Shown: positions 15,738 through 60,301 of the stretch, piece by piece
How the letters are laid out: every line of letters starts with the position of its first letter
How positions within the stretch are numbered: position 1 is the first letter of the stretch
NCBI GenBank assembly: GCA_963741955.1
Contig: CAVUKB010000007.1
Location: forward strand, 1,184,001 to 1,248,000
Length of the DNA: 64,000 bases
DNA from: an uncultured Acidobacteriota bacterium
GTDB lineage: Bacteria > Acidobacteriota > Thermoanaerobaculia > Gp7-AA8
Direction of reading: 5' to 3'
Position numbers and translations under genes: made by a program
Notes under the pieces: model-generated
The model's input: only the letters and a program-made list of their open reading frames with translations
Databases searched by the model: none
What the model was told of the DNA's origin: nothing

Positions 15738-17897
15738 ATGACCATCACTGAAGCCGACACCACTGCTCAACCGCCGATGACCTCCGGTGGAGTCTTTCGA
15801 ATCGAGCGCGATGGAGACATGGCGCTTCTCTGGATCGACCTTCCGGGACAGAAGGTCAACACGCTCTCGTCGTCGGTGATGACGGAGCTCGACCATCTCC
15901 TCGACGAGATCGCCGGGATGCGCGAAGTGCGTCGCCTCCTGATCGTGTCGGGGAAGCCGGGCATTTTCATCGCGGGCGCCGACGTGACCGAGTTCACCAA
16001 AGTCGAATCGCGTCAACAGGCCGAGGAGTTCATCAGGTTCGGTCAGAACGTCTTCCGGAAGCTCTCCCGCCTCCCGCAGATCACCATTGCGGTGATCAAC
16101 GGCGTCTGCCTCGGCGGCGGTACCGAGCTCTCGCTCAACTGCGACTATCGCGTGATGTCCGATGACCCGAAGGCCTCCATCGGTCTTCCGGAAGTGAAAC
16201 TCGGAATCCTTCCGGCATGGAGCGGCACCACGATGATGCCCCGGCTGATCGGGCTTCCGGCCGCTCTCGATCTGATCCTGAACGGGAAGACCCTCGACGG
16301 ACGTCGCGCGAAGAAGGTCGGTCTGGTCGATGACGTCATCGCCGCTCCGATTCTCATCGAGGGAGCGAAGATCTTCGCATCGCGTCAGAAGAGCAAGAGG
16401 GCGCCGGGAGGGAGGACGCACTTCTACCTCGAAGGAAATCCGCTCGGACGCGGATTCGCGATCAAGAAAGCCCGCGGCGCGGTGCTCAAACAGACCGGAG
16501 GTCACTATCCGGCGCCGCTGAAGATCCTCGAAGTGATGGAGACGGGACTCGCGAAGGGAGTCGAGGCGGGTCTCGCAGCCGAAGCACGTGCCGCGGCGGA
16601 GTTGATCACCGGCGCGGTCGCGCCGAATCTGGTCCGCCTGTTTTTCCTGATGGAAGACGCGAAGAAGCTCCCCGGCCCGAAGCCGAAAGAGGTCCACAGT
16701 GCCGGCGTTCTCGGTGCGGGACTGATGGGTGGCGGAATCGCGCAGATCGTCGCGGACAAGGCCGACATTCCGGTCCGGATGAAGGACATCAACTGGGATG
16801 CTCTCGCCGGCGGGATGAAGGCCGCTGCGAAGATCTGGAAGAAGAAGGTCGACCGCCGGAGGATGACCCGCAACGCCATGTCACGGAAGTTGGCGATGAT
16901 CACCTCCACCACCGACTGGAGCGGGTTCGGGGACGTCGACGTCGCGATCGAAGCGGTGGTCGAGAACGTCGGCATCAAGCAGAGCGTCCTTCGCGAGTTC
17001 GAGACCGTGGCGAAAGAAGGAGCGATCTTTGCCACCAACACCTCGACCATTCCGATCACCACCATCGCATCTGCGTCACTGCATCCGGAGAACGTGATCG
17101 GGATGCACTTTTTCAGTCCGGTCGACCGGATGCCGCTGGTCGAGATCATCCTCGGAGAGAAGACTTCCGAGGAGACCATGGCGACCGTTGCGGCTCTCGG
17201 AAAACGGATCGGGAAGACGGTCGTGATCTGCAAGGATGGCCCCGGTTTCATCGTGAACCGGATTCTCGGGCCGTACATCAACGAGGCGGGACTGCTCCTC
17301 GAAGAGTCGCACGCGATCGAGTCGATCGACCACGCCATGGTGAAGTTCGGGATGCCTCTCGGCCCGCTCGCCCTCCTCGACGAAGTGGGAATCGACGTCG
17401 CCGGGAAAGCCGCGCACGTCATGGCGGACGCGTTCGGTGATCGGATGAAGCCTTCGGAACTGATCGAAAAACTGCTCGAGGACAAGCGCTACGGAAAGAA
17501 GAACGGCCGTGGCGTCTATCTCTGGACCGAAGGGAAGCGCACCGCGCCGGATCCCACGGTCTACAGGCTGGCCGGTGTGGCGAACGCGCACGAAGGTGAC
17601 GAGGCGTTGATGACCGAGCGGATGGTGATGGTGATGGTCAACGAGGCCGCCCGGATTCTCGATGATGGCATCGCGTTCTCCGCTGCGGACGTCGATCTGG
17701 CGATGATCATGGGGACCGGATTCCCGCCGTTCCGAGGAGGACTGCTCCGTTATGCGGACTCCATTGGAATCTCGAAGCTCATCGAGAAGATGAAAGGACT
17801 GGCGGCGACATATGGACCCCGCTTCCAGCCGGCGGCACCTCTCGAGCGGATGGGGGCAGAAGGAAAGACCTTCTACGACGCCTGGCCGAAACGCTGA
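15738..17897 (+). CDS. fadJ: Fatty acid oxidation complex alpha subunit (enoyl-CoA hydratase / 3-hydroxyacyl-CoA dehydrogenase)
   Basis: FIAGAD, CLGGGTE, GLPEVKLGILP, GAGLMGGGIA, GMHFFSPV, GTGFPPFRGG. Confidence 0.92.
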   Translation: MTITEADTTAQPPMTSGGVFRIERDGDMALLWIDLPGQKVNTLSSSVMTELDHLLDEIAGMREVRRLLIVSGKPGIFIAGADVTEFTKVESRQQAEEFIRFGQNVFRKLSRLPQITIAVINGVCLGGGTELSLNCDYRVMSDDPKASIGLPEVKLGILPAWSGTTMMPRLIGLPAALDLILNGKTLDGRRAKKVGLVDDVIAAPILIEGAKIFASRQKSKRAPGGRTHFYLEGNPLGRGFAIKKARGAVLKQTGGHYPAPLKILEVMETGLAKGVEAGLAAEARAAAELITGAVAPNLVRLFFLMEDAKKLPGPKPKEVHSAGVLGAGLMGGGIAQIVADKADIPVRMKDINWDALAGGMKAAAKIWKKKVDRRRMTRNAMSRKLAMITSTTDWSGFGDVDVAIEAVVENVGIKQSVLREFETVAKEGAIFATNTSTIPITTIASASLHPENVIGMHFFSPVDRMPLVEIILGEKTSEETMATVAALGKRIGKTVVICKDGPGFIVNRILGPYINEAGLLLEESHAIESIDHAMVKFGMPLGPLALLDEVGIDVAGKAAHVMADAFGDRMKPSELIEKLLEDKRYGKKNGRGVYLWTEGKRTAPDPTVYRLAGVANAHEGDEALMTERMVMVMVNEAARILDDGIAFSAADVDLAMIMGTGFPPFRGGLLRYADSIGISKLIEKMKGLAATYGPRFQPAAPLERMGAEGKTFYDAWPKR

Positions 17898-21270: not shown

Positions 21271-21807
21271 ATGACACGATCGCCCCTGCGACCGCAGCCC
21301 TCGGAATACGCCGAATTCTACCGCGGGTACGTCGACCTGGTTCCCGAAGTAGACATCCTCGAGGCGCTCGAACAGCAGCGCCTCGAGCTTCTCTCGGCGT
21401 TCGGCTCCGTCGGGGCCGATCGTGAAAAGTTCCGCTACGCGCCGGGAAAATGGAGCATCCGGGAAGTCGCCGGACACCTCATCGACAGCGAACGGGTCTT
21501 CGCGTATCGCGCACTCTCGTTCGCCCGCGAAGAAGGGGTCGAGCTTCCCGGATTCGACGAGAATCAATGGTCGGCATCAGCGGGCGCGGATGCCATCCCG
21601 CTCGCGGAGCTCTCTTCCCATTTCGATGCCCTGCGTCGCGCGAACCTTGCCATGTTCCGCGCCTTCCCCTCCGGTGCGTGGGAGAGGAGCGGCGTTGCGA
21701 ACCAGGTTCCGATCACCGTTCGTGCGCTCGCGTGGATCATGGCCGGTCATGCCAGACACCACCTTCGGGTCCTCGAAGAGCGGTACGGCGTCCGTCGCGA
21801 CGGCTGA
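21271..21807 (+). CDS. DinB/YfiT family protein
   Basis: YAPGKWSIREVAGHLIDSERVF, LPGFDEN, AGHARHHL. Confidence 0.9.
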   Translation: MTRSPLRPQPSEYAEFYRGYVDLVPEVDILEALEQQRLELLSAFGSVGADREKFRYAPGKWSIREVAGHLIDSERVFAYRALSFAREEGVELPGFDENQWSASAGADAIPLAELSSHFDALRRANLAMFRAFPSGAWERSGVANQVPITVRALAWIMAGHARHHLRVLEERYGVRRDG

Positions 21808-22157
21808 AGAAGGAGGGGTGCACGCCGCGGGTCATAGGTTTCCCGGGTTTCCCGGGCCGGCGTGACGTCTTCCAGCTCGAATCGGGCTGGCCTCTCGCTA
21901 CCGACCCGCTCGGCAGCAAGGTCACGCTCCGGCTCGAGCTCCACCTCCTCGCCACGACACGGGGTGAGAAATCCGAGCTGGCAGTTCCGCGCGAACTGAA
22001 GGACCGGCACCCCCCTGGGGGAAGCAGAGTCTGCCGTCGGAATCGGCCGCGCCCGGGGCGGCTCGAATTCCGAAAAAGGAGAGAGCGGTTCAATCCTTCG
22101 GAAATGGCGAGGCTTCTGCATTGCCGATTGATGGCAACGAAAACGAACCGCGAGGAT

Positions 22158-22173
22158 TGACCCCATGGGGTCA
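22158..22173. repeat. Perfect 16-bp palindrome upstream of the RAYT-like gene
   Basis: TGACCCCATGGGGTCA is its own reverse complement. Confidence 0.75.
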
Positions 22174-22203
22174 TGTCTCGACAAACCATGTTAGGATGTA
22201 GCA

Positions 22204-23157
22204 ATGGCTAGACCTCTCAGACTGGAGCATCCGAACGGCCTCTGGTTGGTGTCGAACCGGCGGGATGAGCGGCACGCCATCTTCCGTGACGACGAAGACC
22301 GGGAGAGCTTCATCCGGACCGTGGGACGGGTTGCGATCGCATCCCGCTGGCACGTTCTGGCTTACGGACTTGCGGACCGGCACTACGTGCTTCTTATCCG
22401 GACCCCGGAAACGAATCTTTCGACCGGAATGAGGCAGATCAACGGAATCTACACGCAATACTTCAATCGACGTTACCGCCGCAAGGGCTCCCTGATGGAG
22501 GGGAGATTCCGCGGGGTGATCGTGGAGCAGGACGCGAATTTCGCCGAGCTCCTCAGGTATGCGGTGACCATGCCGGTGACCGAAGGCGCTGCGCGCTCCG
22601 CGGCGTCCTGGAAGTGGAGCAGCTATCGCGCGACGGCGGGACAGGTGACACCTCCGGAATGGCTCGACGTGGATGAAGCCCTCACCGCATTCGGACGGAG
22701 TCGAAAGAAGGCGCAGGAGTCGTACCGGCAGTTCATCGCCGCGGGAAAGCGTTCCGACTACGACCCCTGGAGCCAGGTGAAGGGTCAGGTCTTTCTCGGA
22801 AGCGAAGAGTTCCGGCGGAAGATGATGAAGGAGCTTCCCCGAGTCGCTGGATCATCGGAGACCCGCGAGCGCCGGGTGCTGAAGGGACGTCCGAATCTGA
22901 GCGCCATCTTCGGACAGACGGCGAAGGAATTCCGGATGGACGAGAAGGACCTCCGCCGCGGCCGCGGCGGCACGCCGCGGACCATGGCGGCGTTTCTCGC
23001 CCGCCGGGAGGGGAGCATCTCTCTCGGGCCGATCGCGAGGGCTCTCGGTATCGCCGAATCGGCGGTCTCGCGGCTGGCGCGACTGGGGGAGGAGCAGTAC
23101 GAGGGGGACGCCGATTTCCGCCGCTCCGCGGACCGCATCACCAAACGAATCATCTGA
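22204..23157 (+). CDS. REP-associated tyrosine transposase (Y1/RAYT)-like protein with C-terminal HTH; catalytic motifs degenerate
   Basis: MARPLR, IFRDDEDR, NLSTGMRQINGIYTQYFNRR, WKWSSYRA, GQVFLGSEEF typical of RAYTs; HUH region reads LADRHYV. Confidence 0.88.
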   Translation: MARPLRLEHPNGLWLVSNRRDERHAIFRDDEDRESFIRTVGRVAIASRWHVLAYGLADRHYVLLIRTPETNLSTGMRQINGIYTQYFNRRYRRKGSLMEGRFRGVIVEQDANFAELLRYAVTMPVTEGAARSAASWKWSSYRATAGQVTPPEWLDVDEALTAFGRSRKKAQESYRQFIAAGKRSDYDPWSQVKGQVFLGSEEFRRKMMKELPRVAGSSETRERRVLKGRPNLSAIFGQTAKEFRMDEKDLRRGRGGTPRTMAAFLARREGSISLGPIARALGIAESAVSRLARLGEEQYEGDADFRRSADRITKRII

Positions 23158-23195
23158 TCAGCTTGGGGTGAGCCGTATCTCAGCGTACTTGCGCT

Positions 23196-23704
23196 CCGGG
23201 GTGCGGATCCCGCCCTGCGGGATCCGCCGCTAGAATCGCGTTGTACGCGAGGAAGAGCGAGCCTGGGGGTGAGCGGGAAGCGTCACGCACGAGCCGGAGC
23301 GGCTTCGCTTCTGCCACAGCCGTCGTCTCATCCCTCTTCGAACGTGAGTTGCGCGGCGGATCAGAGGATCCGCGCCCCTCGGCGTTATCTCGCCTCGGGG
23401 TAGTTCTTCCGGGGTGCGGATCCCGCCCTGCGGGATCCGCCGCGAGCGTCGCGTTGTACGCGAAGAAGAGCGAGCCTGGGGGTGAGCGGGAAGCGTCACG
23501 CACGAGCCGGAGCGGCTTCGCTTCTGCCACAGCCGTCGTCTCATCCCTCTTCGAACGTGAGTTGAGCGGCGGATCAGAGGAGCCGCGCCCTTCGGCGTTA
23601 TCTCGCCTCGGGGTAGTTCTTCCGGGGTGCGGATCCCGCCCTGCGGGATCCGCCGCGAGCATCGCGTTGTACGCGAAGAAGAGCGAGCCTGCGGGTGAGC
23701 GGGA
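23196..23704. repeat. Repeat family A: tandem 213-bp units (about 2.4 copies) with GC hairpin
   Basis: CCGGGGTGCGGATCCCGCCCTGCGGGATCCGC starts at 23196, 23409 and 23622. Confidence 0.92.
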
Positions 23705-23716
23705 CCAGCGGTTGCG

Positions 23717-25063
23717 TCAGTGCGTGAATGGGCTCGGGTAGCTCGTCAGTGACGTCTCTCTGAATCCGATGCCGTGTGCCGCCAGCTCTTCGAGAATCGA
23801 TTCGTAGAGCTCGGGGATCACCGGGATCAGCGCACCGGTGGCATGGATGCGGCGCCGGTCGAGCAGGAGGCGCGTCGCGATCGCGGCCGGAAGGGTGACC
23901 GTTCTCGCCATCGCCGAGTCCCCCCACGCCTTGCCGATCTCGGCCAGGGTCGAGCGGATGTACTCGTGCCGCCCGTCGGGATAGATGGCAGTGATGTTGT
24001 GCTGCATGGCCACCATGTCGCGCTCACCCGGGCGATAGACCATCATCTTCTGCAGGCGGTCGACGAAGATGTCGAGAGCCGACGCGGACGAACGAGGCAG
24101 AGGACGGTCGGAGAAGAACCCTGCCCACTCCAGCCGGGTGATGATCTCCGAATCGGGATCGATCCCCAGGAACCTCGCGACCCTTGCCACGAGCGCCCCC
24201 CCGTTCTCCGGAAGGAGCCGGGTGAGGAAATCGGCATACGTGGTTCCCTCCGGCCACTCCCGTACCGTCACGTCGAACAGCCCGAGGTCCGCAGCCGCTT
24301 TCATCGTGTCGCACCAGCCGGGATAGCGGATGGTGCCGCGGAACATGTTCACCACCCCATTGAGGCCGTAAAGGTCGATGTACGAGATCGAGTCGCGGTT
24401 CGGATAGATCTCGAACACGCCCTGGCTCTCGACTTCGAACGGCCAGTGATGCGCGAACAGATCCGGTCCGTCCACCTCGACCGTGTTCCCGTTGCGGAGG
24501 TAGCGCGCGCTCTCGCGTCCGGCGAGAACCACCCCTCGGGGATTCCAGGAGAACTTGTACCCCCACGGGTTGTCGTGGGCGTCGGGCGCCGGAAATCCGC
24601 CGCAGCAGCTCGAAAAGTGTGTGATGGTCGCGCTCCGCGAGCGGAGCTTGTTGACCAGATGTACCGCCGACATGTGGTCGATGCCGGGGTCCAGTCCGGT
24701 TTCGCTGAGCACCGCCACTCCTGCCTTCTTCGCTTCGTGGTCGAGCTCCCGGACCGCGGGCGACTGATACGACGTGCTCACGAAATTCTTCCGGTGTGCG
24801 ATGGCCATCTTCGCCATCGGTGCCTGAAGGAACGCAGGAAGGAGACAGACTACGACGTCGGACTCGCGCACCAGCCGGTCGACGGCGGGGGTGTCGGTCG
24901 CATCGAGGGTCAGAGCTCGAACGCGGTCGCTGGTCTCGAGAAACGGCTGGACGCGCTCGAGCTCCTGAGCGGCGACGACGATTCGGTATTCGCGGCGATC
25001 GAGGAAGTAACGGATCAGGGGGGGCGAGGTCATCCCTGCGCCGAGAAGCAGAATGTTCTTCAT
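23717..25063 (-). CDS. Saccharopine dehydrogenase (glutamate-forming, Lys9/AASS-SDH-like)
   Basis: ILLLGAG, ETGLDPGIDHMSA, SCCGGFPAP, NPWGYKFSWNPRG, YPNRDS, RGTIRYPG, SAMARTV. Confidence 0.93.
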   Translation of the reverse strand: MKNILLLGAGMTSPPLIRYFLDRREYRIVVAAQELERVQPFLETSDRVRALTLDATDTPAVDRLVRESDVVVCLLPAFLQAPMAKMAIAHRKNFVSTSYQSPAVRELDHEAKKAGVAVLSETGLDPGIDHMSAVHLVNKLRSRSATITHFSSCCGGFPAPDAHDNPWGYKFSWNPRGVVLAGRESARYLRNGNTVEVDGPDLFAHHWPFEVESQGVFEIYPNRDSISYIDLYGLNGVVNMFRGTIRYPGWCDTMKAAADLGLFDVTVREWPEGTTYADFLTRLLPENGGALVARVARFLGIDPDSEIITRLEWAGFFSDRPLPRSSASALDIFVDRLQKMMVYRPGERDMVAMQHNITAIYPDGRHEYIRSTLAEIGKAWGDSAMARTVTLPAAIATRLLLDRRRIHATGALIPVIPELYESILEELAAHGIGFRETSLTSYPSPFTH

Positions 25064-30989: not shown

Positions 30990-33988
30990 GAAATCCGGAG
31001 ACAGAAAGACTCGATCTCGACGTGATCCGCCGCCGCATCGAAGAAGCGGGCGACGGTTACTCGTGGCGAAGCCTGGACGAGGTCGCCGCCACCGAAGAGT
31101 TCCAGGAGTACCTGCAGTACGAGTTCACGGAACAGCAGGAGATCTGGAGTGATCCGGTCAGCCGCCGCAACTTTCTCAAGCTGATGGCGGGCTCGTTCGC
31201 TCTCGCCGGCCTGACCGGCTGCATCAAGTTCCCGGCGGACAAGATCGTCCCGTACATCGACCAGCCGGAGATGCTCGTCCCCGGCCAGCCTCTCTGGTTC
31301 GCGACGGCGGTTCCGTTCCGCGGCTTCGGACGCGGTGCGATCGTCCGCAGTAACGAGGGGCGTCCGACCAAGATCGACGGAAACCGGAGGCACCCGGCGA
31401 CGCTCGGTGCGACCGACCCGTTCATGCAGGGCGAGCTGATCGCGATGTACGACCCAGAACGCGCGCAGTCCTTCCGTGTGGACGGGAGAGTGACCACCGC
31501 GGAGACGTTCATCGACGAGATGCTTCTGGTTCTCGAGCGTGAGGCGGCCCGTCAGGGGTCAGGTCTGCGGATCCTGACGGGGACCGTCACGTCGCCCACC
31601 ATCGGCGCCCAGCTGAAGGCGATCCAGCAGAAATATCCGGCCGCGCGATGGCACCAGTGGGAACCGGTCAATCACGACACCGAGTACCGCGCGGTCCGCA
31701 CCGCGTTCGGCGGCGACTACGATCTCAGCTATCGATTCGATCGCGCGAAAGTGATTCTTTCGCTCGATTCCGACTTCATGTTCGGTCACCCCGGGAGCAT
31801 CCGTTTCGCCCGCGACTTCTCGTCCACGCGGCGGGTGATCGACGAGACGCCGGCGGAGATGAATCGCTTCTACTCGGTGGAGGTGATCCCGACCGTCACC
31901 GGCTCGGTGGCCGACCATCACCTGGCGCTCCAGGCCCGCGACATCCAGGCCTTCGCTCGCGATCTCGCGGCCCGGCTCGGGGTCGCGGGCGCCGCGCGCG
32001 ACGCGTCGTGGATGACTCGAGACCGCGACGAAAAGGAGAAGTGGATCTCGGCTCTGGCGCGCGAGCTCGTCGCGAATCGAGGTCAGTCACTCGTGGTCGC
32101 GGGTGAGCATCAGCCCGAGGTGGTCCACCTCGCCGCGATGGCGATCAATCAGATCCTCGGCAACTTCGGGGAGACCGTCGTCGTTCTTCCCCCGTCGGCG
32201 GTCCAGCCGGTCGATCACCTCCAGTCGCTGCGGGAGCTCGCCGCGGACATGGCCGCCGGAAAGGTCGAGACGCTCTTCATCATCGGCGGCAATCCGGTCT
32301 ACGACACCCCCGGCGATCTCGAATTCTCCCGGCTTCTGGAAAAGGTGCGGACACGCGTGCATCTCTCGCTCTACGAGAACGAGACGTCGCTGAAGTGCAA
32401 CTGGCTCGTGCCTCGTAAACACTTTCTCGAGGATTGGTCCGACATTCGCGCGTTCGACGGGACCATCTCGATCATCCAGCCTCTCATCGCACCTCTGTAC
32501 GAGTCGCGATCGCCCCACGAGCTTCTCTCTCTCATCGCACACGAGCCGGCGCGCACCTCCCACGACATCGTCAAGGAGTCGTGGCGGACTCAGTCCGGCT
32601 CGGCCGATTTCGAGACGTTCTGGGAGACCTCGCTCCTCCATGGAGTGGTGGACGGTACCGCGCACGCCGACACCGGTCTCACCCCATCCGTGCCCACCGC
32701 CGCGCTCCAGCCTCCCGCAACGAACCGCATCGGAGGACTGGAAGTGGTCTTCCGGCCCGATCCGACGGTCTGGGATGGAGAGTACGCACAGAACTCGTGG
32801 CTTCAGGAGCTCCCGAAGCCGATCACGAAGCTCACCTGGGACAACGCGATCCTGATCAGTCCCTCCACCGCGGACCGCTTCGCGCTGCAGAACGAGTGGG
32901 TGGTGAAGGTCCGTGCGCGCGGGGCGGAGGTGGCGGGAGCGATCTGGATGGTGCCGGGGATGCCGGACGACACCGTCGTCCTGAATCTCGGCTACGGGCG
33001 CAAGACCGGACACCCCGAGGGAGCGGGAGGCGGCTTCAATGCGTACCTGCTCCGCCCGAGCGATTCGATGCTCTGGGTGGAGGGGGCGGAAATGGTGAAG
33101 GGTGCCGGGAAGTACGCACTCGCGTCGACCCAGCACCATCAGACCATGCAGGGGCGGGACATGCTCCGCCACGCGACGCTCGAGGAGTATCGGAGGGTTC
33201 CCGATTTCGTTCGACGCCCCGACAAGGAGCCTGCTCCGGACGAGACGATGTATCCGCCCTGGCCCTACGACGGCTACAAGTGGGGGATGTCGATCGACCT
33301 GAATACATGTATCGGCTGCGCCGCGTGCGTCATCGCCTGTCAGGCGGAGAACAACATTCCGGTGGTGGGAAAGAAGGAAACGGTCCGGAATCGCGAGATG
33401 CACTGGCTCCGCATCGACCGTTACTACACCGGTATCCTGGAAAAGCCGAAGATCTACTGGGAACCGGTGCCGTGCATGCACTGCGAGAACGCACCGTGCG
33501 AGTACGTCTGTCCGGTCGGCGCGACGGTTCACAGCAGCGACGGCCTCAATCAGATGATCTACAACCGCTGCATCGGAACCCGTTACTGCTCGAACAACTG
33601 TCCATACAAAGTGCGCCGCTTCAACTTCCTCCAATACACCCCGGACGACATTCCGACGTACGCGATGATGGCCAATCCGAACGTCACCGTCCGAAGCCGC
33701 GGGGTGATGGAGAAGTGCAGTTACTGCGTGCAGCGGATCAGTGCCGCTCGCATCCAGGCGGAGAAGGAGATGCGCCGGATCCGCGACGGGGAAGTCACCA
33801 CCGCCTGTCAGGATGCCTGTCCCACACAGGCGATCGTCTTCGGCGACCTCAACGACCGGAGCTCGAAGCTGCGGAAGCTCAAAGCGCTTCCCCGTGACTA
33901 CGGAATCCTCACCGAACTCAATACCCGGCCGCGGACCACGTACCTCGGCAAGATCGAAAATCCCAACCCGGAGATCGAGACGGAGTAG
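30986..33988 (+). CDS. actB: Alternative complex III subunit B (molybdopterin-oxidoreductase-like + 4Fe-4S)
   Basis: WRSLDE, Tat motif SRRNFLK, EGRPTKIDGN, NSWLQELPKP, CIGCAACVIAC, CMHCENAPC, RGVMEKC. Confidence 0.95.
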   Translation: MRNPETERLDLDVIRRRIEEAGDGYSWRSLDEVAATEEFQEYLQYEFTEQQEIWSDPVSRRNFLKLMAGSFALAGLTGCIKFPADKIVPYIDQPEMLVPGQPLWFATAVPFRGFGRGAIVRSNEGRPTKIDGNRRHPATLGATDPFMQGELIAMYDPERAQSFRVDGRVTTAETFIDEMLLVLEREAARQGSGLRILTGTVTSPTIGAQLKAIQQKYPAARWHQWEPVNHDTEYRAVRTAFGGDYDLSYRFDRAKVILSLDSDFMFGHPGSIRFARDFSSTRRVIDETPAEMNRFYSVEVIPTVTGSVADHHLALQARDIQAFARDLAARLGVAGAARDASWMTRDRDEKEKWISALARELVANRGQSLVVAGEHQPEVVHLAAMAINQILGNFGETVVVLPPSAVQPVDHLQSLRELAADMAAGKVETLFIIGGNPVYDTPGDLEFSRLLEKVRTRVHLSLYENETSLKCNWLVPRKHFLEDWSDIRAFDGTISIIQPLIAPLYESRSPHELLSLIAHEPARTSHDIVKESWRTQSGSADFETFWETSLLHGVVDGTAHADTGLTPSVPTAALQPPATNRIGGLEVVFRPDPTVWDGEYAQNSWLQELPKPITKLTWDNAILISPSTADRFALQNEWVVKVRARGAEVAGAIWMVPGMPDDTVVLNLGYGRKTGHPEGAGGGFNAYLLRPSDSMLWVEGAEMVKGAGKYALASTQHHQTMQGRDMLRHATLEEYRRVPDFVRRPDKEPAPDETMYPPWPYDGYKWGMSIDLNTCIGCAACVIACQAENNIPVVGKKETVRNREMHWLRIDRYYTGILEKPKIYWEPVPCMHCENAPCEYVCPVGATVHSSDGLNQMIYNRCIGTRYCSNNCPYKVRRFNFLQYTPDDIPTYAMMANPNVTVRSRGVMEKCSYCVQRISAARIQAEKEMRRIRDGEVTTACQDACPTQAIVFGDLNDRSSKLRKLKALPRDYGILTELNTRPRTTYLGKIENPNPEIETE

Positions 33989-48169: not shown

Positions 48170-49159
48170 GTGCGACAGGCGCTCGGGGGCCGAAGTGTCA
48201 AGGACCGCTGCTGGTCTTCATGCGCCACACGGAGCCGTCGCCTTACTCGCCCGGACGGTTGGCGCTCTAAAGTTTTGGCGCCTCGTCCCGACGAAGTATC
48301 ACCATACCCACTCGCGCGGGCTTCACCCTCTCCCCGTCCGGGGTCATGTCTTCAGTCGAGGCACGACTTTCGGGGAGAGGGAAGGGTGAGGGGCAACCCT
48401 GAGAGTTGAATTCGAGGCCGCAGCCGGATATCACTCCTGTTCGCACACGCGCCGAGGAGTGCGGATCCAGCCCTGCAGTCCGCCGCGCAAATCATGTTGT
48501 CCGCGATGAAGAGGAAGGTTGTGGCTTCCGCGAAGCGTCGGTAATCCTCGCGCTCAGCTCCGCTTCTGCCGCATGGCGAGGGGCGCCCCTCGGGGCCCGA
48601 GGTTCGGGGCGCGGGGCTCGAGCTAGGAGCCTCGAAGCTCGGAGAATGACGAGATCCGGATCGGAAGATTTCAATCCCTGGAACGGCACGCGGCACGTGC
48701 GCACCCTCTCCCCGTCCGCACCCACACAACTTCAGCCGAGATCCGCCCTTCGGGGAGAGGGAAGGGTGAGGGGCAACCCCGAGAGTTGAATTCGAGGCCT
48801 TAGCCACTCGCCTCGTCTACGCGTGAATCATGTTATCCGCGATGAAGAGGGAAATTGCGGCTCCCGTGAAGCGTCGGTAATCCTCGCGCCCAGCCGCTTC
48901 TGCCGCATGGCGAGGGGCGGCACGGCTTCCGCCGTGCCGGCCGCGGCGCCCCTCGGGGGCCGAGGTTCGGGGCGCGAGGCTTGGGATTCGGGATTCGGAG
49001 AATGACGAGATCCGGATTGGGAGTCTTCAATCCCTGGAACGGCACGCGGCACGTGCGCACCCTCTCCCCGTCCGCACCCACACAACTTCAGCCGAGATCC
49101 GCCCTTCGGGGAGAGGGAAGGGTGAGGGGCAACCCCGAAAGTTGAATTCGAGGCCTTAG

Positions 49160-50876: not shown

Positions 50877-51505
50877 TTAGCCACTCGCCTCGTCTACGCG
50901 TGAATCATGTTATCCGCGATGAAGAGGAAAGTTGTGGCTTCCGCGAAGCGTCGGTAATCCTCGCGCTCAGCTCCGCTTCTGCCGCATGGCGAGGGGCGGC
51001 ACGGCTTCCGCCGTGCCGGCCGCGGCGGCAGCCGCGGCGCCCCTCGGGGGCCGAGGTTCGGGGCGCGGGGCTCGAGCTAGGAGCCTCGAAGCTCGGAGAA
51101 TGACGAGATCCGGATCGGAAGATTTCAATCCCTGGAACGGCACGCGGCACGTGCGCACCCTCTCCCCGTCCGCACCCACACAACTTCAGCCGAGAGCCGC
51201 CCTTCGGGGAGAGGGAAGGGTGAGGGGCAACCCCGAAAGTTGAATTCGAGGCCGCAGCCGGATATCACTCCTGTTCACGCACGCGCCGAGGAGTGCGGAT
51301 CCCGCCCCCGCGGGATCCGTCGCGTGAATCATGTTGTCCGCCCTCGGCCTGACATCGGAGAACGAAGAGGGTTCACCATTCGCCGGGCTCGTCGGAGGGG
51401 AGGCCGGCGCCGCGCCACCTCGACGAGCGAGCGGGCCTCCGCAGCGGTCGAAGACCTGACCCCGCTCGTCCCCGGCGCCGTCCTCGCGCTATACTGGCGG
51501 CTTCC

Positions 51506-53957: not shown

Positions 53958-55377
53958 CAGTGGGTCGTGCGTCGCGCACGAGGCTCCCCGGCATCATGCC
54001 GGGGAGCGATGGCGTGGATGAGACGCGAGTCGCTCTTCTTGCGTTGCAGTGAGTGTCGGGTCGCGGTCTTCGGGAGGATCGCGGGTTTCGTCGCGGAACA
54101 GGGCGGCGCGGGACGCCGCCCTGCATCGGACGAGACGTCCAACCCACAGCCGCCCTGCATCGGACGAGACGTCCAACCCACTACAGTGGGTCGTGCGTCC
54201 CGCACGAGGCTCCCCGGCATCATGCCGGGGAGCGATGGCGTGGATGAGACGCGAATCGTACTTCTCGCGCTGCAGTGAGTTCGGGTGTCGGTCTTCGGGG
54301 AGATCGCGGGTTTCGTCGCGGAACAGTGCGGCGCGGGACGCCGCCCTGCATCGGACGAGACGTCCAACCCACAGCCGCCCTGCATCGGACGGGACGTCCA
54401 ACCCACTACAGTGGGTCGTGCGTCCCGCACGAGGCTCCTCGGCATCATGCCGGGGAGCGATGGCGTGGATGAAACGCGAGTCGCTCTTCTCGCGCTGCAG
54501 TGAGTTCGGGTCTCGGTCTTCGGGGAGATCGCGGGTTTCGTCGCGGAACAGGGCGGCGCGGGACGCCGCCCTGCATCGGACGGGACGTCCAACCCACAGC
54601 CGCCCTGCATCGGACGGGACGTCCAACCCACTACAGTGGGTCGTGCGTCCCGCACGAGGCTCCCCGGCATCATGCCGGGGAGCGATGGCGTGGATGAGAC
54701 GCGAGTCGCTCTTCTCGCGTTGCAGTGAGTTCGGGTGTCGGTCTTGGGGGAGATCGCAGGTTTCGTCGCGGAACAGGGCGGCGCGGGACGCCGCCCTGCA
54801 TCGGACGAGACGTCCAACCCACAGACGCCCTGCATCGGACGAGACGTCCAACCCACTACAGTGGGTCGTGCGTCCCGCACGAGGCTCCCCGGCATCATGC
54901 CGGGGAGCGATGGCGTGGATCAGACGCGAGTCGCTCTTCTCGCGTTGCAGTGAGTTTCGGGTCGCGGTCTTCGGGGAGATCGCGGGTTTCGTCGCGGAAC
55001 AGGGCGGCGCGGGACGCCGCCCTGCATCGGACGAGACGTCCAACCCACAGACGCCCTGCATCGGACGAGACGTCCAACCCACTACAGTGGGTCGTGCGTC
55101 CCGCACGAGGCTCCCCGGCATCATGCCGGGGAGCGATGGCGTGGATGAAACGCGAGTCGCTCTTCTCGCGCTGCAGTGAGTTCGGGTGTCGGTCTTGGGG
55201 AGGATCGCGGGTTTCGTCGCGGAACAGGGCGGCGCGGGACGCCGCCCTGCATCGGACGAGACGTCCAACCCACAGCCGCCCTGCATCGGACGAGACGTCC
55301 AACCCACAGCCGCCCTGCATCGGACGAGACGTCCAACCCACAGCCGCCCTGCATCGGACGGGACGTCCAACCCACAG
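53958..55377. repeat. Repeat family D: six tandem 225/226-bp hairpin-rich units with nested 33-bp subunits
   Basis: CAGTGGGTCGTGCGTC starts at 53958, 54184, 54409, 54634, 54859, 55085; subunit CGCCCTGCATCGGACGAGACGTCCAACCCAC twice per unit, four times in the last. Confidence 0.95.
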
Positions 55378-57692: not shown

Positions 57693-60301
57693 CTTTCAGG
57701 GTTGCCCCTCACCCTTCCCTCTCCCCGAAGGGCGGTCCTCGGCTGAAGTTGTGTGAGTGCGGACGGGGAGAGGGTGGGCACGTGCCGCGTGCAGTTCCAG
57801 GGATTGAAATCTTCCCATCCGGATCTCGTCAATCTCCGAGCCCCGAGCCTCGCGAGAACGGTACGGCGTGCAGTCGTACGATTCGCGCAATCAACTTTCA
57901 GGGTTGCCCCTCACCCTTCCCTCTCCCCGAAGGGCGGTTCTCGGCTGAAGTTGTGTGGGTGCGGACGGGGAGAGGGTGGGCACGTGCCGCGTGCAGTTCC
58001 AGGGATTGAAATCTTCCAATTCGGATCTCGTCAATCTCCGAGCTTCGAGCTTCGAGCCTCGAGCCTCGAACCTCGAGCCTCGCGAGAACGGTACGGCGTG
58101 CAGTCGTACGATTCGCGCAATCAACTTTCAGGGTTGCCCCTCACCCTTCCCTCTCCCCGAAGGACGGTTCTCGGCTGAAGTTGTGTGAGTGCGGACGGGG
58201 AGAGGGTGGGCACGTGCCGCGTGCAGTTCCAGGGATTGAAATCTTCCAATCCGGATCTCGTCAATCTCCGAGCTTCGAGCTTCGAGCCTCGAGCCTCGAA
58301 CCTCGAACCTCGAGCCTCGCGAGAACGGTACGGCGTGCAGTCGTACGATTCGCGCAATCAACTTTCAGGGTTGCCCCTCACCCTTCCCTCTCCCCGAAGG
58401 ACGGTTCTCGGCTGAAGTTGTGTGAGTGCGGACGGGGAGAGGGTGGGCACGTGCCGCGTGCAGTTCCAGGGATTGAAATCTTCCAATCCGGATCTCGTCA
58501 ATCTCCGAGCTTCGAGCTTCGAGCCTCGAGCCTCGAACCTCGAACCTCGAGCCTCGCGAGAACGGTACGGCGTGCAGTCGTACGATTCGCGCCATCAACT
58601 TTCAGGGTTGCCCCTCACCCTTCCCTCTCCCCGAAGGGCGGTTCTCGGCTGAAGTTGTGTGGGTGCGGACGGGGAGAGGGCGGGCACGTGCCGCGTGCAG
58701 TTCCAGGGATTGAAATCTTCCAATTCGGATCTCGTCAATCTCCGAGCTTCGAGCCTCGAGCCTCGAGCCTCGAGCCCCGCGAGAACGGTACGGCGTGCAG
58801 TCGTACGATTCGCGCCATCAACTTTCAGGGTTGCCCCTCACCCTGCCCTCTCCCCGAAGGGCGGTTCTCGGCTGAAGGTGCGTGAGTGCGGACGGGGAGA
58901 GGGTGGGCACGTGCCGCGTGCAGTTCCATGGATTGAAATCTTCCAATCCGGATCTCGTCAATCTCCAATCTTCGAACCTCGAGCCTCGAGCCTCGAACCT
59001 CGAGCCTCGCGAGAACGGTACGGCGTGCAGTCGTACGATTCGCGCAATCAACTTTCAGGGTTGCCCCTCACCCTTCCCTCTCTCCGAAGGGCGGTCCTCG
59101 GCTGAAGTTGTGTGAGTGCGGACGGGGAGAGGGTGGGCACGTGCCGCGTGCAGTTCCAGGGATTGAAATCTTCCAATCCGGATCTCGTCATTCTCCGAGC
59201 CCCGAGCCTCGAGCCTCGAGCCTCGAGCCTCGAGCCTCGAACCTCGAGCCTCGCGAGAACGGTACGGCGTGCAGTCGTACGATTCGCGCAATCAACTTTC
59301 AGGGTTGCCCCTCACCCTTCCCTCTCCCCGAAGGGCGGTCCTCGGCTGAAGTTGTGTGAGTGCGGACGGGGAGAGGGTGGGCACGTGCCGCGTGCAGTTC
59401 CAGGGATTGAAATCTTCCAATCCGGATCTCGTCAATCTCCGAGCTTCGAGCCTCGAACCTCGAGCCTCGAGCCTCGAGCCTCGAGCCTCGAACCTCGAGC
59501 CTCGCGAGAACGGTGCGGCGTGCAGTCGTACGATTCGCGCCATCAACTTTCAGGGTTGCCCCTCACCCTTCCCTCTCCCCGAAGGGCGGTTCTCGGCTGA
59601 AGGTGCGTGAGTGCGGACGGGGAGAGGGTGGGCACGTGCCGCGTGCAGTTCCATGGATTGAAAACTCCCAATCCGGATCTCGTCAATCTCCGAGCTTCGA
59701 GCCTCGAGCCTCGAGCCTCGAGCCTCGAGCCTCGAGCCTCGAGCCTCGAGCCTCGAGCCTCGAGCCTCGCGAGAACGGTACGGCGTGCGGTCGTACGATT
59801 CGCGCAATCAACTTTCAGGGTTGCCCCTCACCCTTCCCTCTCCCCGAAGGGCGGATCTCGGCTGAAGTTGTGTGGGTGCGGACGGGGAGAGGGTGCGCAC
59901 GTGCCGCGTGCAGTTCCAGGGATTGAAATCTTCCAATCCGGATCTCGTCAATCTCCGAGCTTCGAGCCTCGAACCTCGAGCCTCGCGAGAACGGTACGGC
60001 GTGCAGTCGTACGATTCGCGCAATCGATCTTCAGGGTTGCCCCTCACCCTTCCCTCTCCCCGAAGGGCGGTTCTCGGCTGAAGTTGTGTGGGAGTGCGGA
60101 CGGGGAGAGGGTGGGCACGTGCCGCGTGCAGTTCCAGGGATTGAAATCTTCCAATCCGGATCTCGTCATTCTTCGAGCCTCGAGCCTCGAGCCCCGCGCC
60201 TCGAGCCTCGAGCCTCGAGCCCCGAGCCTCGAGCCTCGAGCCTCGAGCCCCGCGCCCCGAGCCTCGAGCCTCGAGCCTCGAGCCCCGCGCCCCGAGCCTC
60301 G
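57693..60301 (+). repeat. Repeat family C array: 11 tandem units of 202+7n bp with variable (AGCCTCG)n tract
   Basis: Units start at 57693, 57895, 58125, 58362, 58599, 58822, 59052, 59296, 59547, 59812, 60028; terminal heptamer run about 60172-60301. Confidence 0.96.

What the first reader, a model, noticed from the sequence alone, without database searches (positions are those of the whole stretch)
22158..23704. Full-length RAYT homologue with selectively erased catalytic motifs beside a hairpin array: candidate domesticated REP-binding protein
Seen: the 317-aa ORF is intact and keeps RAYT scaffold motifs (MARPLR, IFRDD, NLSxGMRQxNGxYTQxFNRR, WSSYRA, GQxxLGSxxF, C-terminal HTH). The positions I recall as catalytically important are changed: YHVxxRGN reads WLVSNRRD, the HUH metal site LMxNHYH reads LADRHYV, GHLFQGRY reads GSLMEGRF, and YxxLNPV reads YAVTMPV (Tyr kept). 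A perfect palindrome lies 30 nt upstream and a 213-bp hairpin array starts about 40 nt downstream. Known: Y1 HUH enzymes need both His residues for metal-dependent cleavage. Inference: changes focused on the active site without stops or frameshifts suggest selection for a nuclease-dead DNA/hairpin-binding role (regulator or organiser of the many REP arrays), analogous to nuclease-dead TnpB derivatives.
Basis: partly seen in the sequence, partly recalled or inferred. Interest (0 to 1): 0.82.

Follow-up and report, generated by a model that had tools for sequence, protein, structure and literature searches.

The report
Nuclease-dead transposase relative kept as gene
An intact gene descended from a single-strand DNA transposase has lost most of its metal-binding catalytic residues but kept its DNA-binding parts, and close cousins with the same losses are strongly conserved, so it is most likely a transposase turned into a DNA-binding protein.

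Summary
Window 22204-23157 (+) is an intact 317-aa ORF. It has a perfect 16-nt palindrome 30 nt upstream and a 2.4 x 213-bp hairpin array 37 nt downstream.

The protein is not a classic RAYT. It belongs to TnpA_REP subclass 2.1, also called TIRYT: a RAYT-type HUH fold plus a C-terminal DnaA-domain-IV-like helix-turn-helix.

It lacks the second HUH histidine (HYH to HYV), the helix-D Asn metal ligand (YxxxN to YxxxM), and the family His/Gly/Asn of WHVxxRGN and GHL. It keeps the first His and the Tyr.

About 20 relatives show the same pattern. One orthologue pair of these is collinear over 6.9 kb, with dN/dS 0.057, lower than its flanking genes. Whether the query shares their ancestral loss is unresolved (AU p 0.48).

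The palindrome contains the family's terminal-inverted-repeat tip (GGGGTCAKGTCT) at -37, the same offset as in the conserved orthologue pair. That 12-mer occurs 70 times in this genome against 1 for the control, as solitary copies and often inside coding sequence.

The hairpin array belongs to a 92-locus genome-wide family. It is absent beside the three relatives with available DNA, so the adjacency is probably coincidental.

Verdict: a domesticated, probably nuclease-dead DNA-binding derivative. The proposed link to REP arrays is not supported.

The parts
22158..22173 (.). Perfect 16-nt palindrome TGACCCCATGGGGTCA: two head-to-head copies of the family's TIR tip. Candidate operator.
   Evidence: perfect, and the only copy in the genome. 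GGGGTCA at -37 from the ATG, the same offset as in HUH-less L011/L042 and L043.
22167..22178 (+). TIR-type 12-mer GGGGTCATGTCT, a variant of GGGGTCAGGTCT.
   Evidence: GGGGTCA[GT]GTCT occurs 102 times in the genome; the exact G-variant occurs 70 times against 1 for the reversed control; the same sequence is the TIR of HUH+ family genes in other genera.
22204..23157 (+). Intact 317-aa ORF: catalytically degenerate TnpA_REP subclass 2.1 / TIRYT homologue.
   Evidence: the ORF; 2205 homologues at E<=1e-3, best non-self 47-49% identity. AF2 pLDDT 86.2, pTM 0.81. GC3 0.79, like its neighbours; under neutral drift at 0.3 substitutions per site the ORF stays open in only 0.2% of simulations.
22204..22653 (+). 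N-terminal RAYT-type HUH fold (aa 1-150) with a dismantled metal site: H15L, G20R, N21D, H62V, H96S, N123M. H60 and Y119 are kept.
   Evidence: Foldseek 4er8_A, E 5.5e-7, TM(target) 0.77 over 155 columns; motif columns. E. coli TnpA_REP uses H59, H61, Y115, N119, H123 and E161.
22879..23154 (+). C-terminal DnaA-domain-IV-like helix-turn-helix domain (about aa 226-317).
   Evidence: 3pvp and 1j1v, TM(target) 0.82-0.83, rmsd 1.4-1.5 A; family profile against DnaA chains, E 2.1e-7; weak TIGR00362 match at aa 231-316.
23162..23173 (+). CTTGGGGTGAGC: a direct-orientation GGGGWSAS-type motif just after the stop. It recurs in each array unit. There is no inverted right-end TIR here.
   Evidence: family D3: 23162, 23263, 23476; there is no TGACCCC downstream of the gene, unlike the HUH+ relatives.
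23195..23704 (+). Tandem array, 2.4 copies of a 213-bp hairpin-rich unit. It belongs to a genome-wide GGATCC-hairpin repeat family and is probably not functionally tied to the ORF.
   Evidence: 447 HSPs merging into 92 loci, 56 kb in total; this family flanks none of the genome's Y1 genes in a REPtron layout.

Best explanation
The ORF encodes an immobilised, most likely nuclease-dead descendant of a TIR-flanked Y1 (HUH) transposase of the TnpA_REP subclass 2.1 / TIRYT family.

Shown:
- It keeps the RAYT-type fold and a C-terminal DnaA-domain-IV-like HTH.
- Two of the metal ligands defined in E. coli TnpA_REP are replaced: the second HUH His and the helix-D Asn.
- Four further residues that are near-invariant in active members are also replaced.
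- It is single copy, lacks an inverted right-end repeat, and has the codon composition of its neighbours.
- A set of about 20 relatives carries the same pattern of losses. One orthologue pair from that set is collinear and under stronger purifying selection than its flanking genes.

Inferred:
- The protein no longer cuts DNA and works as a sequence-specific DNA-binding protein.
- Its likeliest site is the TIR-derived motif GGGGTCAKGTCT.
- That motif sits 37 nt upstream of its own start, here doubled into a perfect palindrome, so the first role would be autoregulation from that operator.
- A wider role at the many solitary copies of the motif in the genome is possible but unproven.
- The adjacent 213-bp array is most likely a bystander.
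For: 1. Family and fold. There are 2205 homologues. Foldseek gives 4er8_A RAYT at E 5.5e-7 for the N-terminal part and DnaA domain IV at TM(target) 0.82 for the C-terminal part. The profile matches DnaA chains at 2.1e-7 and 4er8 at 1.2e-4. The literature places proteins of this architecture in subclass 2.1 / TIRYT.

2. Motif loss. Of 64 columns at least 85% conserved in 195 HUH+ homologues, the query keeps 46. It differs at 9 of the 11 columns that 18 other HUH-less proteins have lost, against 9 of 53 elsewhere (p 7e-5).

3. Selection.
- Under neutral drift of 0.3 substitutions per site the ORF stays open in 0.2% of 2000 simulations.
- The query keeps 44 of the 53 other conserved columns. The HUH+ median is 94% and the 5th percentile 81%.
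- HUH-less orthologues L042 and L043 are 89.7% identical, with dN 0.054, dS 1.02 and omega 0.053-0.057.
- Their flanking genes have omega 0.148 and 0.158, within a 6.9-kb collinear block.

4. Trees put the query inside an all-HUH-less group: FastTree support 94, and IQ-TREE without the 32 motif columns SH-aLRT 91 and 94.

5. TIR link.
- HUH+ relatives are flanked by GGGGTCAGGTCTT... upstream and ...TGACCCC at the stop (positions).
- The query and L042/L043 keep GGGGTCA at -37.
- Between L042 and L043 a 23-nt block GGGGTCAGGTCTGCTATGATTCG is invariant within diverged intergenic DNA.

6. Four intact HUH+ paralogues and decayed copies elsewhere in the genome show what active and dying copies look like here.
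Against: - No orthologue closer than 49% identity exists in the collections searched. Run X2 holds the same strain. Selection on this copy is therefore inferred, not measured.
- The AU test does not reject placing the query with the HUH+ sister clade (delta lnL 0.71, p 0.48). The strong dN/dS result may not transfer to it.
- H60 and Y119 are retained. Of the four a-priori catalytic residues only 2 changed (not significant). Residual or altered chemistry cannot be excluded.
- DNA binding, the binding site and autoregulation are untested.
- The simple sigma-70 scan found 0 promoter-like sites in 21750-23800.
- The HUH-less relative in G005 (L022/L041) has no GGGGTCA upstream.
- There is no conserved synteny between the window and G006.
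Confidence: 0.6

Rival explanations
1. Transposition regulator. The dead copy binds the ends of active TIRYT elements or TIR-MITEs and represses their movement, as truncated or inactive transposase derivatives do in other systems.
For: It keeps both DNA-binding modules and a TIR-type site. The genome holds intact HUH+ paralogues, one of them multi-copy with decayed fragments.
Against: The intact paralogues in this genome (L002-L005) have no GGGGTCA-type TIR in the 90-150 nt examined on either side; the only near match is a TCACCCC 189 nt downstream of L003. They carry a different CCGAGGTA..CTCGG hairpin before the ATG. No inverted TIR pairs (MITEs) exist here: 2 convergent pairs among 296 degenerate sites.
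Confidence: 0.13
2. One reading: a hairpin-binding regulator or organiser of the genome's REP-like arrays, with the adjacent 213-bp array as its cognate target.
For: The array starts 37 nt after the stop. Its GGATCC-hairpin family flanks none of the four short classic RAYT genes, which each have their own REPs in a REPtron layout, so the family lacks an obvious partner. Each unit holds a GGGGTGAG motif that fits the published TIR consensus GGGGWSAS. Another repeat family embeds GGGGTCATGTCT, the query's own variant, in 18 of its 32 copies.
Against: There are 92 loci of this family in 5.4 Mb. By my estimate that gives roughly a 4% chance that a given gene has one in a flanking spacer. The array is on one side only and not in inverted REPtron arrangement. 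No tandem arrays lie within the 12-17 kb fetched around the HUH-less relatives in G006 and G005. Published subclass 2.1 genes have no REPs nearby.
Confidence: 0.08
3. Still an enzyme. With H60 and Y119 retained, it cleaves or joins DNA using a non-canonical metal site or a partner protein.
For: Tyr and the first His are kept. The TIR-type 12-mer is abundant in this genome although no HUH+ gene flanked by it was found. This could mean recent activity.
Against: Val and Met replace two ligands of the metal site defined in 4ER8. Four more residues near-invariant in active members are gone. Most members of the HUH-less group also lack the Tyr: the Tyr is kept in 22% of 18 and H60 in 6%.
Confidence: 0.08
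4. Neutral relic. A dying TIRtron copy whose frame happens to be open in a GC-rich genome.
For: Long terminal branch (0.69-0.70). Sub-threshold Pfam and NCBIfam scores. No close orthologue. Right-end TIR lost. Quentin et al. 2018 treated motif-less homologues as non-functional (passage seen).
Against: See the neutral simulation, the retention of 44 of 53 other conserved columns, and the non-random location of the changes (p 7e-5). The alignment is full-length and free of frameshifts, including the HTH. The model is confident. The genome's real decaying copies carry stops and truncations.
Confidence: 0.08

Closest known systems
TnpA_REP subclass 2.1 (Quentin et al. 2018, PMC6006769), also called TIRYT / TIRtron (Di Nocera et al. 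2013, PMC3733652)
   Same: Length of about 320 aa. N-terminal Y1 core with family signatures (NH[YF]H, FQ, Y[IV]xLNP in active members). C-terminal Bac_DnaA_C / HTH-like domain. No REPs in REPtron layout. A TIR motif fitting GGGGWSAS upstream. Acidobacterial hosts are well represented (passages seen; own data).
   Different: The second HUH His, the YxxxN Asn and other invariant residues are lost. Only the left TIR is present and it is doubled into a palindrome. The gene is single copy. Both papers state or require that HUH and Tyr be conserved. Quentin et al. removed 202 of 924 motif-less sequences as probably non-functional.
E. coli RAYT / TnpA_REP (PDB 4ER8; Messing et al. 2012, PMC3479197)
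   Same: Best structural match of the N-terminal domain. A Tyr on helix D, four residues before the metal-ligand position.
   Different: 14% identity. E. coli uses H59, H61, N119, H123 and E161 with Y115 and binds a GTAG REP hairpin. Here the equivalents of H61 and N119 are Val and Met, a 170-aa extension with a DnaA-like HTH is added, and no flanking REP pair exists.
DnaA domain IV (PDB 3PVP, 1J1V, 2HCB)
   Same: The C-terminal 90 aa superpose at 1.4-1.5 A with 24% identity. The family profile matches DnaA chains at E 2e-7.
   Different: There is no AAA+ module. The likely target (GGGGTCAKGTCT) does not resemble the DnaA box. Quentin et al. made the same point for the family.
TldR, the TnpB-like nuclease-dead repressors (listing and abstracts seen for PMC10705468 and PMC13622181)
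   Same: A transposon nuclease of the IS200/IS605 world that lost catalysis, kept target recognition, and was recruited as a DNA-binding regulator.
   Different: A different protein (TnpB RuvC fold against TnpA HUH fold). TldRs are RNA-guided. Nothing here suggests a guide RNA. This is a functional analogy only, not membership.

Membership tests
RAYT / TnpA_REP (NCBIfam NF047646; Pfam PF01797 Y1_Tnp) | Profile score above the curated cut-off | tested here: not met
   NF047646: 45.0 bits against cut-off 80. PF01797: 20.7 bits against 23, and 22.6 bits in the genome scan.
RAYT / TnpA_REP | HUH motif with both histidines | tested here: not met
   HYH reads HYV: H60 is kept and H62 is Val. Both His are 100% conserved in 195 HUH+ homologues.
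RAYT / TnpA_REP | Catalytic Tyr on helix D | tested here: met
   Y119 is present in RYAVTMPV.
RAYT / TnpA_REP | Helix-D Asn metal ligand, four residues after the Tyr (N119 in E. coli) | tested here: not met
   N123 is Met. The ligand set comes from Messing 2012.
RAYT / TnpA_REP | RAYT/Y1 fold | tested here: met
   Foldseek 4er8_A: E 5.5e-7, TM(target) 0.77. ISDra2 and IS608 TnpA chains follow.
RAYT / TnpA_REP | REPtron layout: cognate REPs on both sides in inverted orientation | tested here: not met
   The array lies on the 3' side only. Four other Y1 genes in the genome do show the layout with their own REPs.
RAYT / TnpA_REP | Mn2+-dependent cleavage of single-stranded REP DNA | not testable with these tools
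   Needs a biochemical assay.
TnpA_REP subclass 2.1 / TIRYT | C-terminal Bac_DnaA_C / HTH domain after the Y1 core | tested here: met
   Precomputed PF08299 appears on some homologues.
TnpA_REP subclass 2.1 / TIRYT | Full-length sequence kinship with family members | tested here: met
   E 1e-88 to 1e-63 over 90-100% of the length, to proteins named RayT or transposase that carry PF01797.
TnpA_REP subclass 2.1 / TIRYT | Gene bracketed by terminal inverted repeats (GGGGWSAS type) | tested here: not met
   The left motif is present at -37 (GGGGTCAT, 7 of 8 consensus positions). No inverted copy lies downstream; there is only a direct GGGGTGAG at +7.
TnpA_REP subclass 2.1 / TIRYT | HUH and Tyr motifs conserved, as stated for all published members | tested here: not met
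   against passages.
DnaA domain IV-type DNA-binding domains | Fold of the HTH domain | tested here: met
   3pvp and 1j1v: TM(target) 0.82-0.83, rmsd 1.4-1.5 A.
DnaA domain IV-type DNA-binding domains | Sequence-specific double-stranded DNA binding | not testable with these tools
   No protein-DNA prediction or assay was available.

The most novel reading that the evidence does not exclude
HUH-less TIRYT derivatives are chromosomal site-specific DNA-binding factors. Their cognate site, the former transposon end GGGGTCAGGTCT, has been spread or maintained as tens to hundreds of solitary copies across the chromosome, including inside conserved coding sequence in five reading frames. That distribution resembles uptake-signal or nucleoid-protein sites rather than transposon copies.

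The observations behind this:
- In the two genomes where the only gene next to this motif is an HUH-less one, the motif is solitary (G000: 70 copies; G006: 30).
- In four genomes with an intact HUH+ gene bracketed by the motif, most copies form 51-200-nt inverted pairs, i.e. MITE-like elements.
Probability: 0.2. Interest if true: 0.85.

Novelty: new variant of a known kind. Interest (0 to 1): 0.62.

Why it matters
RAYT-type Y1 transposases are already cited as domesticated bacterial transposases, but as active nucleases. The largest survey of the superfamily set aside homologues without HUH and Tyr motifs as probably non-functional.

Here a group of such proteins shows strong purifying selection (omega 0.057) in a conserved chromosomal locus. 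This argues that a Y1 HUH transposase has been turned into a non-catalytic protein, a TnpA counterpart of the nuclease-dead TnpB repressors.

The case is testable. There is a candidate 16-nt operator in front of the gene and a sharply defined 12-mer present in about 70 copies. If the protein binds these, it links a former transposon end to a genome-wide site set, an unusual route to a regulatory or chromosome-organising system.

The limit is that the studied copy has no close orthologue, so its own selective state rests on indirect evidence.

Tried and rejected
- Single-sequence phmmer against PDB chains gave only a chance hit (E 0.5). A family profile and a fold search were needed.
- Homodimer prediction (complex prediction): no answer, score 0.00. 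It is not evidence either way.
- Expression: no RNA holder listed.
- Read laying: run X1 is the probable source. X2 holds identical short contigs of the same strain. X3 holds nothing. So there are no variants for a population dN/dS.
- The metagenome-contig scan returned 80 loci. 3 are HUH-less by my classifier, none of them from the query's group, so it added no DNA for that group. The genome-contig scan gave only L042 and L043.
- Synteny between the window and the G006 locus: none.
- The sigma-70 consensus scan of 21750-23800 found 0 promoter-like sites and one weak terminator-like site on the minus strand overlapping the palindrome.
- Strand polarity of the 12-mer relative to local GC skew: none. 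Counts were 24 against 22, and 9 against 15.
- AVSR[LM] in the HTH as a shared derived mark of the query's subgroup: found in 4 HUH-less proteins but also in 2 HUH+ proteins, out of 465 records scanned. This is weak.
- An extended match of the query's leader to C7:1261078 turned out to lie at the start of an outer-membrane-efflux-like ORF. I judged it coincidental.
- The idea that the array's left edge continues to the stop codon was rejected: only a 12-nt match exists.
- One search failed on a malformed search term and was corrected.
Full report
**What is there**

- Window 22204-23157 (+) is an intact 317-aa ORF with an ATG start.
- The perfect palindrome TGACCCCATGGGGTCA lies at 22158-22173, 30 nt before the ATG. 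It is the only copy in the 5.44-Mb, 16-contig genome.
- A tandem array of 2.4 x 213 bp with 96% matches runs from 23195 to 23704, starting 37 nt after the stop. Its unit folds into several hairpins, z = -2.9 against shuffles.
- The neighbouring genes are ordinary chromosomal genes: DinB_2 upstream, two saccharopine/alanine-dehydrogenase-type genes downstream on the other strand, and a GGDEF protein further up.

**Family**

- Curated profiles only graze the protein. Pfam Y1_Tnp scores 20.7 bits against a cut-off of 23. NCBIfam REP_Tyr_transpos scores 45 bits against 80.
- Homologues are nevertheless plentiful. There are 2205 at E<=1e-3 in the word-indexed search. The exhaustive representative search gives 21041 at E<=1e-3 and 590 at E<=1e-30.
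- The nearest non-self protein is only 47-49% identical. The query's own 90% cluster has one member.
- An AlphaFold2 model built on a 148-row alignment is confident: pLDDT 86.2, pTM 0.81.
- Foldseek matches the N-terminal 155 columns to E. coli RAYT (4er8_A, E 5.5e-7, TM 0.77 on the target).
- It matches the C-terminal 90 residues to DnaA domain IV (3pvp, 1j1v; TM 0.82-0.83, rmsd 1.4-1.5 A).
- The family profile also finds DnaA chains (E 2.1e-7) and 4er8 (E 1.2e-4) by sequence.
- This architecture is TnpA_REP subclass 2.1 of Quentin et al. 2018. Passages seen describe a C-terminal Bac_DnaA_C/HTH, no REPs nearby, and motifs NH[YF]H, FQ and Y[IV]xLNP.
- Those authors equate subclass 2.1 with the TIRYT/TIRtron elements of Di Nocera et al. 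2013. Passages seen describe genes bracketed by terminal inverted repeats sharing GGGGWSAS, with a sharply defined acidobacterial group.

**The motif changes**

Against 32 and then 231 full-length homologues:

| Family consensus | Query |
|---|---|
| WHVTxRGN | WLVSNRRD |
| LMxNHYHL | LADRHYVL |
| GHLxQGRF | GSLMEGRF |
| RYVVLNPV | RYAVTMPV |

- In E. coli TnpA_REP the metal is held by H59, H61, N119, H123 and E161 next to Y115 (Messing et al. 2012, passages).
- By position the query keeps the first His (H60) and the Tyr (Y119). It replaces the second His (V62) and the Asn four residues after the Tyr (M123).
- I took the 64 columns that are at least 85% conserved in 195 homologues having HUH and Tyr. 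The query keeps 46 of them.
- Eleven of those columns have lost conservation in 18 other HUH-less proteins: positions 15, 20, 21, 57, 59, 60, 62, 96, 119, 122 and 123. This set was defined without the query.
- The query differs at 9 of these 11 but at only 9 of the other 53 (Fisher p 7e-5).
- With the four a-priori catalytic residues alone, 2 of 4 against 16 of 60 is not significant (p 0.31).
- So the statement that holds is this: the changes sit in the same active-site blocks that a whole set of relatives has abandoned. 'Every catalytic residue is erased' would overstate it.

**Not a lone oddity**

- Of the 231 full-length homologues, 31 lack the His pair, and 22 of those also lack the Tyr. 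Two of the 31 rows are gapped fragments.
- A FastTree of 263 rows needs at least 6 changes of HUH state. It puts the query in an all-HUH-less group of 21, support 94.
- An IQ-TREE of 68 rows with the 32 motif columns removed again gives an all-HUH-less group of 22 (SH-aLRT 91).
- In that tree the query sits in a subgroup with P0029, P0127, P0159 and L022 (SH-aLRT 94).
- The AU test does not reject the alternative that the query belongs with the neighbouring HUH+ clade (delta lnL 0.71, p 0.48).
- A single old loss shared by the query is therefore the best tree but is not established.

**Selection**

- DNA was available for only four HUH-less loci: the query, L042 (the same place as L011 in G006), L043 and L022/L041.
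- L042 and L043 come from two different species-level acidobacterial genomes.
- Their genes are 89.7% identical in protein, with dN 0.054, dS 1.02 and omega 0.053-0.057.
- The two flanking genes have omega 0.148 and 0.158.
- The whole 6.9-kb locus is collinear at 76% nucleotide identity.
- That is a vertically inherited, strongly constrained gene, not a dying transposon.

For the query itself the evidence is indirect:

- In simulations of neutral drift the frame stays open in 1.2% of runs at 0.2 substitutions per site and in 0.2% at 0.3 substitutions per site. These correspond to 34% and 46% amino-acid difference.
- Its terminal branch is 0.69-0.70 changes per column.
- It keeps 44 of the 53 non-active-site conserved columns. 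The HUH+ median is 94% and the 5th percentile 81%.
- It aligns end to end without frameshift, including the HTH.
- Its GC3 of 0.79 matches its neighbours at 0.75-0.83.
- The same genome shows what active and decaying copies look like. It has four intact HUH+ paralogues at 34-40% identity, one of them multi-copy. It also has fragments with stops and truncations.

**The palindrome is a transposon end**

- Many HUH+ relatives in other genera are bracketed by GGGGTCAGGTCTT... upstream and ...TGACCCC at or just after the stop. Examples are L012, L014, L021, L023, L024, L032 and L039.
- Exact bracketing positions are G003:C109 5467(+)/6505(-), G015:C60 45003(+)/46063(-) and G016:C307 11056(+)/12119(-).
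- The query has GGGGTCA at -37 from its ATG. This is the right half of the palindrome; the 12-mer GGGGTCATGTCT is at 22167-22178.
- HUH-less L042 and L043 have GGGGTCA at the same -37.
- Between L042 and L043 the 23-nt block GGGGTCAGGTCTGCTATGATTCG is invariant while the DNA on its upstream side has diverged. This is a footprint of function.
- The query has no inverted right-end copy, only a direct GGGGTGAG 7 nt after the stop.
- The HUH-less gene in G005 has no such motif upstream.
- I read the palindrome as the retained left end of a former TIRtron, doubled head to head and now a candidate operator. Binding itself is inferred.

**An unexpected genome-wide signal**

Counts:

- GGGGTCAGGTCT occurs 70 times in this genome. 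The reversed, non-complemented control occurs once.
- Single-base neighbours are mostly rare. The exceptions are A at position 1 (60 copies) and C or T at position 8 (40 and 32 copies).
- The degenerate form RGGGTCABGTC occurs 296 times.
- Among 41 related genomes the exact word is abundant only in G003 (84), G000 (70), G021 (58), G015 (41) and G006 (30). All others have 11 or fewer.
- G016's gene is bracketed by the variant GGGGTCAGGCCT. G016 has 26 copies of that variant and none of the other. G003 has none of the variant, and G002 and G021 one each. The abundant word therefore tracks the TIR of the resident gene.

Arrangement:

- In G003, G015, G016 and G021 most copies form convergent pairs 51-200 nt apart, i.e. 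MITE-like elements.
- In G000 and G006 no HUH+ family gene examined carries the 12-mer in its flanks; the gene found next to it is the HUH-less one (for G006 only two of six family copies were examined).
- In those two genomes the copies are solitary. G000 has 2 convergent pairs among 296 sites. None of the 30 listed for G006 are paired.
- In G000, 40 of 70 copies lie in coding-like open frames, spread over five reading frames and both orientations. The crude ORF map used covers 63% of the genome.
- In G006, 12 of the 21 sites sampled out of 30 do the same.
- There is no strand polarity relative to GC skew, and density is roughly even across contigs.

I cannot explain how an exact 12-mer comes to sit in conserved coding sequence. 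The pattern resembles binding-site or uptake-signal words more than transposon copies. The contrast rests on 2 against 4 related genomes and may be confounded by kinship.

**The array**

- The 213-bp unit belongs to a genome-wide family: 447 BLAST HSPs merging into 92 loci, 56 kb in total.
- By my estimate, about 4% of genes would have such a locus in a flanking spacer.
- The genome has four short classic Y1/RAYT genes: C7:941635, C10:469871, C6:499864 and C5:696001. Each sits between inverted arrays of its own REP hairpins.
- The GGATCC-hairpin family of the 213-bp array flanks none of them, so it has no obvious partner.
- Against that idea, the array is on one side only. No arrays occur in the 12-17 kb around the HUH-less genes of G006 and G005. 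Published subclass 2.1 genes lack nearby REPs.

**Literature and novelty**

- Three full-text searches found no description of a conserved HUH-less lineage of Y1/RAYT/TIRYT proteins. I also read passages of five papers.
- Di Nocera et al. state that HUH and Tyr are conserved in all their RAYTs and TIRYTs.
- Quentin et al. excluded sequences without the motifs as likely non-functional, keeping 722 of 924.
- The 2022 review of recruited mobile elements mentions IS200/IS605 only for TnpB/IscB.
- I therefore rate this a new variant of a known kind.

**Caveats on sources**

- G022 and G030 are unpublished genomes. They enter only the tallies. They also supply two HUH+ rows (L013, L034) in the tree and the listings. 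No claim in this report depends on them.
- The ligand equivalences to E. coli rest on motif position and the fold match, not on a residue-level structural superposition, which the tools did not return.

Noticed in passing
Genome-wide; in the window at 22167-22178, 31555-31566, 48340-48351 and 51452-51463 (G000:C7:1206167, 1215555, 1232340, 1235452-1235463): The 12-mer GGGGTCAGGTCT (with GGGGTCATGTCT) is about 60-fold over-represented: 70 exact copies against 1 for the control. In this genome and in G006 the copies are solitary and often lie inside coding-like frames in five reading frames. In four related genomes with intact TIRYT genes the same word forms MITE-like inverted pairs.
   Followed up: partly
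G000:C7:941635-941979, C10:469871-470206, C6:499864-500208, C5:696001-696237 (outside the window): Four short classic Y1/RAYT genes, each sitting between inverted tandem arrays of its own REP hairpin (for example AGCCCCGTAGGGGCGATTGACA, or CGCCCCGAAGGGGCG at period 91). These are textbook REPtron layouts and show that several RAYT/REP systems coexist in this genome.
   Followed up: partly
window 53958-55307, 57837-60221 and 60173-60301: Further large tandem arrays: period 225 x 6, period 230-237 x 10, and a CGAGCCT heptamer run. The genome is unusually rich in 90-270-bp-period arrays, and its commonest 12-mers (up to 508 copies) all come from such repeats.
   Followed up: no
G000: 18 sites, for example C1:188330, C5:1094225-1094543, C7:1232340 (window 48340): A repeat family places GGGGTCATGTCT, the variant in the query's palindrome, between the inverted arms CCCTCTCCCCG and CGGGGAGAGGG. 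It is sometimes in tandem at 159-nt spacing. It accounts for 18 of the 32 copies of that variant.
   Followed up: no
G000:C12:4377-5312, C4:15396-16334 and 16559-17005, C7:445317-446252, C6:158827-159342, C10:392-850: A multi-copy HUH+ paralogue (about 40% identical to the query) with conserved upstream DNA. It has intact, truncated and stop-bearing copies, several near contig ends. It looks like a recently active element, and a CCGAGGTA..CTCGG hairpin sits just before its ATG.
   Followed up: partly
G000:C7:456051 (outside the window): GGGGTCAGGTCTTCGATTCTCGCTTGTACG resembles the left-end leader of HUH+ TIRYT genes in other genera (L024, L039). No family ORF was found within reach, so it may be a solo left end.
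   Followed up: no
L042 and L043, upstream of the HUH-less gene: The invariant 23-nt block contains TATGAT about 20 nt before the ATG. This may be a -10 element overlapping the TIR-derived motif.
   Followed up: no
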